Source: Promethearchaeota archaeon (GTDB taxonomy: Archaea; Asgardarchaeota; Lokiarchaeia; Sigyniarchaeales; SOKP01). Taken from it: a DNA stretch of 64,000 nucleotides. Location of the stretch: contig JAEOTR010000016.1 in NCBI GenBank assembly GCA_016839705.1, positions 64,001-128,000 of the forward strand, written 5' to 3'. The translations under genes were made by a program, and so were the position numbers. A model generated the notes under the pieces. The model was not told the DNA's origin. It did no database searches and saw nothing but the letters and a program-made list of their open reading frames with translations. This document shows, piece by piece, positions 48,781 to 51,769 of this stretch (position 1 is the first letter of the stretch; the number at the start of each line of letters is the position of its first letter).

Positions 48781-48885
48781 CCTTAAAGCAGAAGTTTTAT
48801 ATTTTATTTAATAATATGTTTAAGAAAAAATGTAATATATAATTATTTAGCTAATATCAAGGAACAATAGGAGGAAAATAAGAAG

Positions 48886-49452
48886 ATGAGTAAAATATCT
48901 TTAAGCCCGGGATACTCCACTTTCCCTATGCCAGCAGCAGTTATTTCTGTGGGTACAGGAGATGAAGCCAATTTAATTACTCTTGCCTATGTTGGAAAAG
49001 TGTGCTCAAAACCACCAATTATTGCTATATCTATACAACCGATACGTCACTCTTATCATATAATAGAAAAACTTGGAGAATTTGTAATCAATTACCCAAC
49101 CATCAATCAGTTAAGAGAAATGGATTATTGTGGTACGAGATCTGGGAGAAATGTGAATAAATGGAAAGAGTTAAATTTAACAAAAGAAAAAGCATCAGTT
49201 GTAAGTGTGCCTTTAGTAAAGGAATTCCCTTGGAATATGGAATGCAAGGTTGTTAATAGAATAGAACTTGGTACTCATGTATGTTATTTTGGGGAAGTGG
49301 TGGCGGTTCATTCTGATGAAGAGTATGTTAAAAATGGTTCACTGGATCCTGACAAATTTAATTTTTTCGCTTATATTTCAGGTATCTATATTGCTTTGAA
49401 TAAAGGAGCAATAGAAAGGCATGGATTTTCATTATCAAAACCTTTAGAATGA
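48886..49452 (+). CDS. Flavin reductase-like FMN-binding protein
   Basis: GEFVINYP, CGTRSGR, ECKV...GTH. Confidence 0.88.
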   Translation: MSKISLSPGYSTFPMPAAVISVGTGDEANLITLAYVGKVCSKPPIIAISIQPIRHSYHIIEKLGEFVINYPTINQLREMDYCGTRSGRNVNKWKELNLTKEKASVVSVPLVKEFPWNMECKVVNRIELGTHVCYFGEVVAVHSDEEYVKNGSLDPDKFNFFAYISGIYIALNKGAIERHGFSLSKPLE

Positions 49453-49465
49453 TCTCTATAATTAT

Positions 49466-50020
49466 TTGAATAATAAAGTTAGAAGAATTATGTCTAAAAG
49501 TAATATCGCGCTAATTGGGTTTATGGCAACAGGGAAAACTACAGTAGGGAAGGCACTGGTAGATTATCTAGGAAGCCCATACTCCTTCATTGAAACAGAC
49601 CAAATAATAATAGAGAATGTTGGAAAGGATATCCCAAAGATTTTTGCAGAAGAAGGTGAAAATAAATTTCGGGAATATGAAATATCTGCATGTAAACAAG
49701 TTTCCTTATTAAAAAATGTTGTGATTTCATGCGGGGGTGGCGTTGTGTTAAACAAGGTAAATATTGATAATCTAAAGAAGAATTGCTATATTATGTTATT
49801 AAAAGCATCGACCCAAGAGATATACACTAGAGCTATGAAGGATGGAAAGGAAACTAGACCTATTATTAATAAAGAAGATCCCAAAAGTGAAATAGAGGAT
49901 GTTCTAAAATTCCGGAATCCCTTATACAATAGTGCTGCAGATTTTGTTATTGAAACAACTGGTAAGAAAATTAGTGATATTGTTATAGAGATTGTTAAAA
50001 AAACCCATCTAAAAACCTAA
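49466..50020 (+). CDS. aroK: Shikimate kinase, bacterial P-loop type
   Basis: GFMATGKTTVG, GENKFR, SCGGGVV, RP, R..LY. Likely start is the Met of MSKSN. Confidence 0.92.
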   Translation: MNNKVRRIMSKSNIALIGFMATGKTTVGKALVDYLGSPYSFIETDQIIIENVGKDIPKIFAEEGENKFREYEISACKQVSLLKNVVISCGGGVVLNKVNIDNLKKNCYIMLLKASTQEIYTRAMKDGKETRPIINKEDPKSEIEDVLKFRNPLYNSAADFVIETTGKKISDIVIEIVKKTHLKT

Positions 50021-50027
50021 ATTTAAA

Positions 50028-50035
50028 TTTATAAA
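50028..50035 (+). promoter_or_regulatory. TATA-box candidate for the intron-containing zinc-ribbon gene
   Basis: TTTATAAA about 42 nt upstream of ATG 50077. Confidence 0.45.
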
Positions 50036-50076
50036 GCCTACTAATATTGTATAAAACATGGTTAAGAGTAAAGATT

Positions 50077-50285
50077 ATGACGGAATATAAAAGGACTAAA
50101 TGCCCAAAATGTAACAATGAGAATCCACGCATGCTCCATGATGAACCCGATAAGAGTAATATTCTTTACTACAGTATTGAAAACGTTATTTAAACTTTTC
50201 GCTGAAGCAGGGAACACCAGTTTATGCGCGAATCATAAAATGTGGCGATTGCGGAAACACATTTTCAAAATCTGCCCCAGCTTAA
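50077..50285 (+). CDS. Small zinc-ribbon protein (59 aa) split by a 29-nt BHB intron: join(50077..50177,50207..50285)
   Basis: Spliced product MTEYKRTKCPKCNNENPRMLHDEPDKSNILYYSMQGTPVYARIIKCGDCGNTFSKSAPA. CPKC and CGDC lie in different frames unless 50178-50206 is removed. A T-rich tract follows the stop. Confidence 0.8.
50178..50206 (+). other. Predicted archaeal bulge-helix-bulge intron in an mRNA (29 nt)
   Basis: Central helix CAGT(50172-75)/GCTG(50201-04); bulges AT^T and AA^G; inner stem GAAAA/TTTTC plus GTT/AAC; contains in-frame TAA (50191-93). Confidence 0.78.
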
Positions 50286-50344
50286 CATTCTAAAAAAAGA
50301 TTACTCTTTCTTTTTTTAATTCTTATTTATTTAAGTGAAAGAAG

Positions 50345-51097
50345 CTAAATGCTAAGATTTAACAGGTTCAGAATTTCTCTTAATTTAGTAATACTTATTT
50401 GACCTGATGCCGTTTTTTCTAAATAGGAACCATATGTTAAGAAAGACTTGCTAAAATTGCACAAAATTCTTGACAATAGTCCCACTTCACCCATGCAAAA
50501 GGAGATTAATCTTAATTTTTTACTTGATTTTATTTTGCATAATTGTAAAGGAATTAAATTATCCTCAAAAGATTGAGCTGTAAATATAAGTTTGAAAATG
50601 CCTTTTTCTACAATCTTTTGATCAATTTGAACGTTTTGTTTCAACTTTTTCAAAGAATCTTCTAAAATTTCAACTGCTACATCGTAAGTAGGAGTTTTTT
50701 CAAAATCGTGAAGAGAAAATATTAGGTTTACCTTATTATGTGATGCTAAGCGAATTATTTCACTTAAAATACTACTTTCAGTATTAATTTCAATATCAAG
50801 ATATCTTGGCTCTGATTCAATTATAATTTTTATTATTTGAAGTCGCTTACTGACTTCAATTTCTATCTGTCCACCTTCAGAGTAATCTCTAAAAGTACAG
50901 ATCACGGGAATTTTTGGTTGAATTCGATTTATTAGATCAATTATAAAATCTTTAGTAATTTTTTGGATATCGGAAATATAATCAAATCTTAGTTCGATAA
51001 AGTCGGGATTAAGAATTATAACTTTTTCAATAGTTGGGGCGATCTCGCTGACCACTACAGATTTAATTGGGATTGGTACACAAATATTGTACTTCAT
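50345..51097 (-). CDS. aroD: Type I 3-dehydroquinate dehydratase
   Basis: ELRFD, TFRDYSEGG, YLDIE, SLHDFEKTP, FCMGEVGLLSR, ASGQ. Confidence 0.92.
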   Translation of the reverse strand: MKYNICVPIPIKSVVVSEIAPTIEKVIILNPDFIELRFDYISDIQKITKDFIIDLINRIQPKIPVICTFRDYSEGGQIEIEVSKRLQIIKIIIESEPRYLDIEINTESSILSEIIRLASHNKVNLIFSLHDFEKTPTYDVAVEILEDSLKKLKQNVQIDQKIVEKGIFKLIFTAQSFEDNLIPLQLCKIKSSKKLRLISFCMGEVGLLSRILCNFSKSFLTYGSYLEKTASGQISITKLREILNLLNLSI

Positions 51098-51124
51098 AGT
51101 AAGAAATTAATTTCCTAATAAAAA

Positions 51125-51769
51125 TTAAATATTCAATATTTCTTTTATATCTTTTTCGGTGAATTTCAAGGTGTTTTCAGCGTTTACTTTTTTGAGGATT
51201 CCCATTTTTTTATAATACTTAATAATCGGCTTTGCATTCTTTTCATAAGCATCTAATCTGTTTTTCAGTGTTTCTTCATTATCATCACTTCGTTGTTCAA
51301 ATTTTATTTCAGAACCACATGCATCACATATACCTTCTACCTTAGGTGGAAGAGTATATTTATTGTAAAGCTTATTACAATTAGGACAGGCGTATCTACC
51401 TAATATTCTTTTCATTATTAAGTCTCTTGGAACTTCTAGTAGAAGTAATAGATCAACTTCAGTTATATTTGTTAACGCTTTTGCCTGAGATATCGTACGA
51501 GGGAATCCATCAAGAATGAAACCTTCTGCCTTCACATCTTCTCTAGTCAGTCGATCTCGTACCATCTCGATAGTCACATCATCAGGAACTAGCTCACCTT
51601 TATCCATATAGCCTTTAGCTTTCAATCCTAAGGGTGTTTCATTTTTCAAGTTTTCCCTAAATATATCTCCTGTACTGATATGAATAATATCTGGCAAAAC
51701 TTTTCTAATCTGTGAACTAAAGGTACCTTTTCCCGCGCCAGGCGGACCAAACAGTATTAATTTTTTCAT
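51125..51769 (-). CDS. adk: Adenylate kinase, bacterial type with Zn-lid
   Basis: GPPGAGKGT, HISTGDIFR, GELVPD, LDGFPR, CPNC...CDAC, RSDDNEET. Confidence 0.95.
   Translation of the reverse strand: MKKLILFGPPGAGKGTFSSQIRKVLPDIIHISTGDIFRENLKNETPLGLKAKGYMDKGELVPDDVTIEMVRDRLTREDVKAEGFILDGFPRTISQAKALTNITEVDLLLLLEVPRDLIMKRILGRYACPNCNKLYNKYTLPPKVEGICDACGSEIKFEQRSDDNEETLKNRLDAYEKNAKPIIKYYKKMGILKKVNAENTLKFTEKDIKEILNI

What the first reader, a model, noticed from the sequence alone, without database searches (positions are those of the whole stretch)
50077..50285. tRNA-type (BHB) intron in a protein-coding gene of a probable Asgard archaeon
Seen in sequence: the aroK-aroD gap holds ATG 50077 encoding MTEYKRTKCPKC...ILYYS, ending at TAA 50191, and in another frame QGTPVYARIIKCGDCG...* ending at 50285. 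The sequence between them folds as a BHB: 4-bp helix CAGT/GCTG, 3-nt bulges ATT (50176-78) and AAG (50205-07), inner stem GAAAA/TTTTC plus GTT/AAC. The outer helix is relaxed (A.C mismatch, then T-A and C-G). Established: the archaeal splicing endonuclease EndA cuts after the second nucleotide of each bulge and RtcB ligates. Applying that rule removes exactly 29 nt (50178-50206), fuses AT+G into a Met codon and restores a 59-aa CxxC...CxxC zinc ribbon. Structure and reading frame independently give the same junction. The only well-established archaeal mRNA BHB intron I know is crenarchaeal cbf5. Inference: this lineage splices other mRNAs too, and such genes are missed by ORF callers.
Basis: partly seen in the sequence, partly recalled or inferred. 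Interest (0 to 1): 0.95.

Follow-up and report, generated by a model that had tools for sequence, protein, structure and literature searches.

The report
tRNA-type mini-intron in Asgard zinc-ribbon gene
A tiny zinc-binding protein gene of a Loki-type (Asgard) archaeon is split by a 29-base insert shaped like a tRNA intron.

Summary
ATG 50077 opens 33 codons that stop at TAA 50189-91. A second frame runs to TAA 50283-85. Removing 50178-50206 (29 nt) gives a 59-residue CxxC...CxxC protein.

About 35 uninterrupted homologues (56-60 aa, Lokiarchaeota/Promethearchaeota) read LYYSMQGTPVY straight across that junction. The split codon becomes an invariant Met, so the junction is unique.

Thirty-four other species of the genus and three metagenome contigs carry an insert of exactly 29 nt at the same site. 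Its hairpin keeps pairing through changes on both sides in 7 of 8 pairs. Exon 2 is under strong purifying selection (dN/dS 0.05).

The same 59-codon gene carries similar inserts at four more sites in other lineages. All obey the same cut rule.

The genome encodes EndA and RtcB. Three other genes in it (RNase HII, an EF-2 paralogue, IscU) have the same kind of insert.

No RNA data exist for this stretch, so splicing itself is inferred, not observed. This scan has reported the same phenomenon before on other DNA, including this gene's orthologue.

The parts
49466..50020 (+). Upstream neighbour, shikimate kinase (aroK)
   Evidence: ORF. The syntenic genes in L001 and L008 carry PF01202 SKI.
50022..50035 (+). 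A/T-rich TATA-like box about 45 nt before the ATG; possible own promoter
   Evidence: Read from the sequence only. Inference, not tested.
50077..50177 (+). Exon 1: 33 codons (first CxxC) plus the first two bases (AT) of the split Met-34 codon
   Evidence: HMM match to profile positions 1-34, E = 1e-18. dN/dS 0.08.
50162..50167 (+). 5' strand of the outer exon-exon helix (pairs with 50209-50214)
   Evidence: MFE fold and RNAalifold consensus. 94% of cells paired; one pair covaries at synonymous sites.
50172..50175 (+). 5' (exon) strand of the central 4-bp helix H (CAGU)
   Evidence: Pairs with 50201-04. 99% of cells paired in 38 sequences, with one exon-intron change on both sides.
50176..50178 (+). 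5' three-nucleotide bulge (AUU); inferred cut after 50177
   Evidence: Unpaired in the MFE fold and in the consensus fold. The cut position is fixed by homology.
50178..50206 (+). The 29-nt intron. Stem 50179-83/50196-200 and 50185-87/50193-95, loop 50188-92, in-frame TAA at 50189-91
   Evidence: Always 29 nt at this site in 38 sequences. Stem 92% paired, with 7 of 8 pairs changed on both sides. Present without gaps in contigs of runs X2, X3 and X4.
50201..50204 (+). 3' (intron) strand of helix H (GCUG)
50205..50208 (+). 3' splice-site loop strand (AAGC); inferred cut after 50206, two bases 3' of helix H
   Evidence: The junction is fixed by homology. It lies in an internal loop rather than a clean bulge once the supported outer helix is used.
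50207..50285 (+). Exon 2: the third base (G) of the Met-34 codon, 25 codons (second CxxC) and the TAA stop
   Evidence: HMM match to profile positions 31-55. dN/dS 0.05 across 36 intron-bearing species; no start codon of its own.
50209..50214 (+). 3' strand of the outer exon-exon helix
50311..50317 (+). Run of T after the stop codon; possible archaeal terminator
   Evidence: Read from the sequence only. Inference.
50345..51097 (-). Downstream neighbour, 3-dehydroquinate dehydratase type I (aroD)
   Evidence: ORF. The syntenic genes carry PF01487.

Best explanation
The gene is transcribed as a precursor mRNA in which 29 nt (50178-50206) interrupt codon 34 of a 59-codon zinc-ribbon protein.

How the RNA folds around the insert:
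- A 4-bp helix forms between the end of exon 1 (50172-75) and the 3' end of the intron (50201-04).
- On one side lies a 3-nt bulge and an 8-bp intron hairpin.
- On the other side lies an internal loop closed by a 6-bp exon-exon helix. This is a relaxed bulge-helix-bulge motif.

Proposed mechanism (inferred):
- The archaeal splicing endonuclease EndA cuts two nucleotides 3' of each strand of the 4-bp helix, after 50177 and after 50206.
- RtcB joins the exons, probably releasing a 29-nt circle.
- The joined AU+G forms the invariant Met-34 codon and shifts the ribosome into the exon-2 frame, so one chain carries both CxxC pairs.
- Unspliced RNA would give only a 38-residue half-ribbon.

Shown here: the junction, its structural conservation, selection on both exons, and the presence of both enzyme genes.

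Inferred: that removal happens at the RNA level, and that EndA and RtcB are the enzymes.
For: 1. Homology fixes one junction. About 35 uninterrupted homologues read LYYSMQGTPVY. S33, M34, Q35 and G36 are invariant. Only removal of 50178-50206 rebuilds ATG.

2. Structure alone predicts the same junction. The chance rate is 5e-4 per position and length.

3. The insert is exactly 29 nt at the same site in 35 species of the genus, counting this genome (34 fetched loci plus the window), and in 3 metagenome contigs. After removal an intact 54-62-residue frame was recovered in 36 of the 38 sequences. For the other two my script failed to locate the start codon.

4. Covariation. Helix H is 99% paired. 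The intron stem is 92% paired, with 7 of 8 pairs changed on both sides. None of 500 shuffles reached the observed score, and slid registers give 54% pairing or less.

5. Selection. dN/dS is 0.08 for exon 1 and 0.05 for exon 2 at near-saturated synonymous divergence. Exon 2 has no start codon.

6. Exon-intron co-adaptation. Ser-33 is AGY in 38 of 38 intron-bearing genes, against 15 of 36 intron-less ones.

7. Independent replicates of the cut rule in the same gene. Inserts at four other sites in L002, L073, L076, L077, L078, L004 and L045 each have a 4-bp helix. Cuts two nucleotides beyond it restore the conserved Tyr-40 to Lys-45 spacing. Three of these inserts are in frame and carry a stop, which no frameshift can bypass.

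8. Same genome. RNase HII, an EF-2 paralogue and IscU carry 27-30-nt inserts of this shape. Their removal restores textbook motifs.

9. Enzymes. EndA (197 aa, PF02778 + PF01974) and RtcB are encoded.
   - Published work assigns Asgard an (alpha-beta)2 EndA with the loop that confers broad specificity (PMC5829648).
   - Cutting between the second and third bulge residues is the published rule for cbf5 (PMC2738675).

10. The insert is not an assembly artefact. Contigs of three runs from two studies span it without gaps.
Against: - No RNA was seen for this gene. No RNA run holds the stretch, so removal at the RNA level is an inference.
- The 3' side is not a canonical 3-nt bulge. With the supported outer helix, the cut lies in a 4x4 internal loop.
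- Only one EndA-like gene was found in this 93%-complete assembly. The heterotetramer expected for relaxed substrates is therefore not confirmed here.
- The fold energy of the single sequence is not exceptional (z = -1.55).
- My simple genome-wide test for frame-restoring motifs showed no enrichment over chance. 'Many genes' therefore rests on individually checked cases.
Confidence: 0.88

Rival explanations
1. The insert is removed from the RNA at this junction, but not as constitutive EndA/RtcB housekeeping. Either another nuclease or ligase acts, or splicing is conditional. In the conditional case the unspliced message (a 38-residue half-ribbon) and the spliced message (the full ribbon) form a switch, as in HAC1/XBP1.
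For: The intron length is 2 mod 3, so splicing changes the frame. The 3' site is non-canonical. Only one EndA subunit was found. The intron has been kept for a long time in 35 species instead of being lost, which could mean it is useful.
Against: The geometry (4-bp helix, cuts two nucleotides beyond it on both strands) is the EndA ruler. It recurs at all other sites and genes checked. The read-through tail after exon 1 is not conserved (three different tails). Intron-less sister species do without it.
Confidence: 0.07
2. The two frames are joined by the ribosome, through a programmed -1/+2 frameshift or by bypassing of the 29 nt, with the hairpin acting as the stimulator.
For: A conserved hairpin with covariation would also be expected of a recoding signal. 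A stop-free window for a single shift exists between 50181 and 50188.
Against: - The invariant Met-34 codon is itself split (AT...G), and a ribosome cannot assemble it.
- A frameshift would add about 9 non-conserved residues in the hairpin turn.
- There is no conserved slippery heptamer and there are no matching take-off and landing codons.
- The fixed 29-nt length and the 4-bp helix would be left unexplained.
- In-frame inserts with stops at other sites and in RNase HII cannot be rescued by one shift.
Confidence: 0.03
3. The gene is a pseudogene broken by a small insertion, or the insert is an assembly error.
For: Gene callers report only a truncated 38-42-residue product (P0037-P0039).
Against: Exon 2 has dN/dS 0.05 over 36 species. 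An intact frame was recovered after removal in 36 of 38 sequences. The stem shows compensatory changes. Contigs from three runs and two studies carry the insert without gaps.
Confidence: 0.01

Closest known systems
BHB intron in the cbf5 (pseudouridine synthase) pre-mRNA of Crenarchaeota (Watanabe 2002; Yoshinari 2006; Yokobori 2009, PMC2738675)
   Same: A short intron inside a protein-coding frame that splits a codon. The motif is an unconventional bulge-helix-bulge with cuts between the second and third bulge residues. Splicing is attributed to a hetero-oligomeric EndA. Gains and apparent precise losses occur among relatives.
   Different: A different phylum (Asgard/Promethearchaeota) and an unrelated gene, a 59-codon zinc ribbon. 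The same gene is hit at five different sites and sometimes carries two introns at once. cbf5 splicing was shown by cDNA; here no RNA was seen.
[quoted passage not shown]
   Same: The same structural signal and the same presumed enzymes. Half of the motif is supplied by exon sequence. ARAGORN flags 17 of the 29 tRNA genes it finds in this genome as interrupted.
   Different: The host RNA is an mRNA. The exon half of the motif must therefore also satisfy codon constraints: Ser-33 is fixed as AGY. Removal also has to restore a reading frame. The preprint does not mention mRNA introns.
HAC1/XBP1 unconventional mRNA splicing in eukaryotes
   Same: Non-spliceosomal removal of a short frameshifting intron (26 nt in XBP1), with RtcB-type ligation. 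The frame switch gives a different C-terminus.
   Different: There the cut is made by IRE1 at twin 7-nt loops and is stress-regulated. Here the motif is a 4-bp helix with flanking bulge and loop, and no regulation is known.
tRNA intron transposition in Thermoproteales (Fujishima 2010, as cited in the 2026 preprint)
   Same: [quoted passage not shown] The second intron of G073 (L073) is a paralogue of the site-A intron family. It sits behind the same exon hexamer, 18 nt downstream.
   Different: This happens within one protein gene, and it is shown for one lineage only. The second-site intron of L002 shows much weaker similarity (9 of 2000 shuffles score as well).

Membership tests
Archaeal bulge-helix-bulge (EndA-type) intron | Central 4-bp helix formed between exon and intron sequence | tested here: met
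   50172-75 pairs with 50201-04. 99% of cells are paired in 38 sequences, with one change on both sides.
Archaeal bulge-helix-bulge (EndA-type) intron | Two 3-nt bulges on opposite strands flanking the helix | tested here: inconclusive
   The 5' bulge 50176-78 is clean. The 3' side can be drawn as bulge 50205-07, but only with an outer helix that is 59% paired. The supported outer helix (94% paired) makes it a 4x4 internal loop. This is a relaxed motif.
Archaeal bulge-helix-bulge (EndA-type) intron | Cuts two nucleotides into each bulge give the mature junction | tested here: met
   The rule gives 50177|50207. This is the only junction that rebuilds the invariant Met codon. The same rule fits 7 further inserts at 4 sites and 3 other genes.
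Archaeal bulge-helix-bulge (EndA-type) intron | Flanking helices: h' within the intron and h between the exons | tested here: met
   h' has 8 pairs, 7 of them with compensatory change. h has 6 pairs, 50162-67 with 50209-14, offset from H by a loop.
Archaeal bulge-helix-bulge (EndA-type) intron | Host encodes the splicing endonuclease and the RtcB ligase | tested here: met
   EndA at G000:C56 (197 aa, both Pfam domains) and RtcB at G000:C25. A second EndA subunit was not found.
Archaeal bulge-helix-bulge (EndA-type) intron | Intron absent from mature RNA; cleavage by EndA in vitro | not testable with these tools
   No RNA run holds the stretch. Spliced-junction patterns found only an intron-less species.
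cbf5 intron of Crenarchaeota (as an orthologous intron) | Located in cbf5, at the codon of the catalytic aspartate | tested here: not met
   The host gene is a zinc ribbon with no Pfam family above cut-off. It works like the cbf5 intron but is not the same intron.
HAC1/XBP1-type unconventional splicing | Twin stem-loops with 7-nt loops cut by IRE1 | tested here: not met
   The fold is one hairpin with a 5-nt loop plus a 4-bp helix. IRE1 was not searched for.

The most novel reading that the evidence does not exclude
These mini-introns are mobile within mRNAs. A copy can settle wherever the exon offers the 5' half of the motif, meaning four bases complementary to the intron's 3' end followed by two bulge bases. 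On this reading the 59-codon gene has been invaded at five sites within 30 nt. In G073 a paralogue of the site-A intron sits behind a second copy of the same exon hexamer. If so, Asgard archaea have a protein-gene intron population with gain by RNA-level reinsertion and loss by recombination with spliced copies. This would be a working model of intron spread in the closest relatives of eukaryotes. Splicing may also be used as a switch between a half-ribbon and a full ribbon.
Probability: 0.3. Interest if true: 0.85.

Novelty: new member of a known kind. Interest (0 to 1): 0.78.

Why it matters
In the papers I could search, endonuclease-type splicing inside an archaeal coding sequence is confirmed for one gene only: cbf5, in Crenarchaeota (PMC2738675). 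A 2026 census of Asgard introns covers tRNA genes only.

This case puts the same mechanism into ordinary protein genes of the archaea closest to eukaryotes. The comparative record is unusually clean: one gene, 35 species with the intron (counting this genome), dozens without it, and five insertion sites.

Practical consequence: ORF callers truncate or miss such genes. Here they report 38-42-residue stubs, or read an in-frame intron through as a 68-residue protein. Asgard proteomes are therefore systematically mis-annotated.

It also gives a compact substrate, about 70 nt, for testing the specificity of Asgard EndA. The preprint names that specificity as an open question.

Tried and rejected
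- **RNA evidence.** No RNA holder is listed for window 48800-51200. An exact search of JGI contigs for the spliced junction of this lineage found nothing. A looser junction pattern found one contig (L097). It is a separate intron-less species, 87% identical to the nearest intron-bearing one, with flanking intergenic DNA, so it is not a spliced transcript.
- **Genome-wide scan.** I looked for motifs whose removal merges two open frames of at least 50 codons. Observed 1051 against 1053 expected by chance, with no enrichment for stronger stems or A-rich bulges. The test is swamped by neighbouring-gene boundaries, and it misses introns near 5' ends. It says nothing about how many introns the genome has.
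- **Precise intron loss in L008.** L008 sits among intron-bearing rows in a 167-column tree. The AU test does not reject placing it outside them (p = 0.31). Loss is plausible but not shown.
- **Second EndA subunit.** Not found by Pfam or by protein search at E <= 10.
- **Function of the protein.** No Pfam family reaches its cut-off. The AlphaFold model (pLDDT 85) is a three-stranded zinc ribbon with no PDB match at E <= 0.001. The name 'ribosomal protein S27AE' given by one source is not supported.
- **Stops inside paralogue matches.** These turned out to be ordinary C-terminal stop codons, not introns.
- **Second-site intron of L002.** It shows only weak similarity to site-A introns (9 of 2000 shuffles score as well).

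Full report
**The observation**

- Between shikimate kinase (49466-50020, +) and dehydroquinase (50345-51097, -) an ATG at 50077 opens 33 codons that carry a CxxC pair.
- The next codon starts AT at 50176-77. The unspliced frame stops at TAA 50189-91.
- A second frame, offset by two, runs from 50208 through a second CxxC pair to TAA 50283-85. It has no ATG, GTG or TTG of its own and is closed upstream by TGA 50178-80.
- Deleting 50178-50206 fuses AT with G 50207 into ATG and yields 59 residues.

**Is the joined protein real?**

A search with the joined sequence found 38 proteins.
- About 35 are uninterrupted, 56-60 residues long and 57-85% identical, from genomes named Lokiarchaeota or Promethearchaeota.
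- They align without a gap across the junction. S33, M34, Q35 and G36 are invariant.
- Because the Met codon itself is split, only one 29-nt deletion reproduces the family sequence. A shift by one base gives Lys.
- The model of the family is a three-stranded zinc ribbon (pLDDT 85) with no significant PDB or Pfam match.

**Relatives with the insert**

Three truncated gene calls among the hits (P0037-P0039) come from contigs with the same insert at the same place.

A search of all 154 genomes of the order gave the following.
- 34 further species of the window's genus match exon 1 only.
- Fetching those loci showed an insert of exactly 29 nt at the identical position in every one.
- After removal an intact frame of 54-62 residues was recovered in 36 of the 38 sequences. 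For the other two, my script failed to locate the start codon.

The insert sequences have diverged into at least three types but keep the fold. On the 38-row alignment A3:
- the 4-bp helix is paired in 99% of cells;
- the intron stem is paired in 92%, with 7 of 8 pairs changed on both sides;
- no shuffle of 500 reaches the observed covariation;
- slid registers pair in 54% of cells or fewer.

Sequences within a genus are related, so these counts overstate independence. The three stem types are nevertheless clearly separate solutions.

**Selection**

Over 36 intron-bearing species synonymous sites are nearly saturated. dN/dS is 0.08 for exon 1 and 0.05 for exon 2. Exon 2 is therefore translated in a frame that can only be reached if 29 nt (or 3n+2) are skipped. 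This excludes a pseudogene.

The Ser-33 codon, which forms three of the four helix pairs, is AGY in all 38 intron bearers. It is TCN in 21 of 36 intron-less genes. The exon has adapted to the intron.

**The motif, corrected**

The proposed outer helix does not: it is paired in 59% of cells.

Three results agree on a different outer helix, a 6-bp exon-exon helix 50162-67 with 50209-14.
- It appears in the window's minimum-energy fold.
- It appears in the RNAalifold consensus.
- 94% of its cells are paired. One pair covaries at two synonymous third positions, though this may reflect only two or three events.

This leaves four unpaired bases on each strand between the outer helix and helix H. The 3' cut therefore lies in an internal loop. 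What is constant is the ruler: both cuts fall two nucleotides 3' of a strand of the 4-bp helix.

Published work says that relaxed motifs need the broad-specificity (alpha-beta)2 enzyme, and that Asgard EndA has the relevant loop (PMC5829648). The rule of cutting between the second and third bulge residues is the one used for cbf5 (PMC2738675).

**Chance**

A scanner requiring only the 4-bp helix (at least 2 Watson-Crick pairs) and four stem pairs fires at 5e-4 per position and length in this window. The single junction allowed by homology is one such position.

**Replicates in the same gene**

Other lineages carry inserts at four further sites within codons 40-43.

| Site | Position | Loci and insert length |
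|---|---|---|
| B | After the first base of the Tyr-40 codon | L002 (41 nt), L073 = G073 (31 nt); both also have the site-A intron |
| C | After the second base of codon 41 | L076 (32 nt), L077 (30 nt), L078 (30 nt) |
| D | After the first base of codon 43 | L004 (36 nt, in frame without a stop; read through by a gene caller as the 68-residue P0036) |
| E | After the second base of codon 42 | L045 (30 nt, one mismatch in the helix) |

In each case a 4-bp helix with cuts two bases beyond it removes exactly the length that restores the conserved Tyr-40 to Lys-45 spacing. Site E was checked by hand. Three of these inserts are in frame and contain a stop.

Site B lies behind the same exon hexamer as site A. 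The G073 site-B intron is significantly similar to the site-A intron family: 0 of 2000 shuffles reach its score. This points to copying of an intron into a second compatible site.

**Same genome**

The genome encodes EndA (197 aa, both Pfam domains) and RtcB.

Starting from notes of this scan, I checked three other genes myself.
- RNase HII on C25: a 30-nt insert with TAA inside the GIDEAGRGP motif.
- An EF-2 paralogue on C82: a 30-nt insert between the G1 and RGITI motifs, with the same two bulge sequences as here.
- IscU on C85: a 27-nt insert before the first Cys ligand.

All three obey the rule and regain the textbook motif.

ARAGORN finds only 29 tRNA genes and flags 17 as interrupted. 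This fits the preprint on Asgard tRNA introns.

**Rivals**

- Ribosomal frameshifting or bypassing cannot assemble a split Met codon. It would add non-conserved residues, lacks slippery or matching codons, and cannot rescue in-frame stops elsewhere.
- An assembly error is excluded by gap-free contigs from three runs in two studies.
- A regulated, HAC1-like use of the frame switch cannot be excluded and was not tested.

**What is missing**

No RNA run holds the stretch, and junction searches found no spliced copy. Removal at the RNA level and the identity of the enzymes are inferences from anatomy, selection and precedent.

**Novelty**

Within the literature I could search, cbf5 is the only confirmed archaeal protein-gene case. 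Other cases were only 'predicted', and the 2026 Asgard census is limited to tRNA. This is a new member of that known kind, in a new phylum.

This scan has reported the phenomenon repeatedly on other DNA, including the orthologue of this gene. My results agree with those notes. They add the five-site history, the corrected outer helix and the intron paralogy.

Noticed in passing
L090:1495-2499 (-) = G000:C64, and L094:733-1608 (-) = G000:C2: The zinc ribbon also occurs as the C-terminal domain of larger paralogues in this genome. One is a 335-residue protein with two gelsolin repeats (PF00626, E = 2e-25). Another is a 292-residue coiled-coil protein. Relatives have similar proteins of about 330-420 residues. 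This hints that the small stand-alone ribbon belongs to a cytoskeleton-associated module.
   Followed up: partly
L006:1501-1668 and L007:79-246 (orthologue in GCA_030605085.1 and a Logan contig): This orthologue has no intron. It has a one-base frameshift in a run of A just before the second CxxC, so the called protein (P0040) has a scrambled C-terminus. It could be a sequencing error in a homopolymer or a real break.
   Followed up: no
window 50177 (run X4, loose ends): Two contigs of an unrelated 2024 marine-sediment run follow the window up to exactly 50177 and then continue with a different sequence. That sequence ends like the site-A intron of L064. A relative with another variant of the same intron is therefore present in that sample (table 7).
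   Followed up: partly
G000 whole genome: Only one EndA-like gene (G000:C56:35901-36491) was found, by Pfam and by protein search at E <= 10. A second, structural subunit expected for Asgard was not found in this 93%-complete assembly.
   Followed up: partly
G000 whole genome: ARAGORN finds only 29 tRNA genes, 17 of them flagged as intron-containing. Many tRNA genes are probably missed because of non-canonical introns.
   Followed up: no
L004:1501-1707 (P0036) and L077, L078: In-frame introns mislead gene callers in two ways. A 36-nt intron without a stop is read through as 12 extra residues. The 30-nt introns with TGA or TAA truncate the call.
   Followed up: yes
L097:120-360 (JGI contig Ga0114922_10283954) and L008:1501-1680: These are intron-less genes whose exon sequences are closest to intron-bearing lineages. 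L008 has 82% aroK identity to the window, more than the intron-bearing L047 and L002. They are candidates for precise intron loss. The AU test was not significant.
   Followed up: partly
L018 and L041 (genus g5): These loci hold two tandem intron-less copies of the zinc-ribbon gene about 380 nt apart.
   Followed up: no
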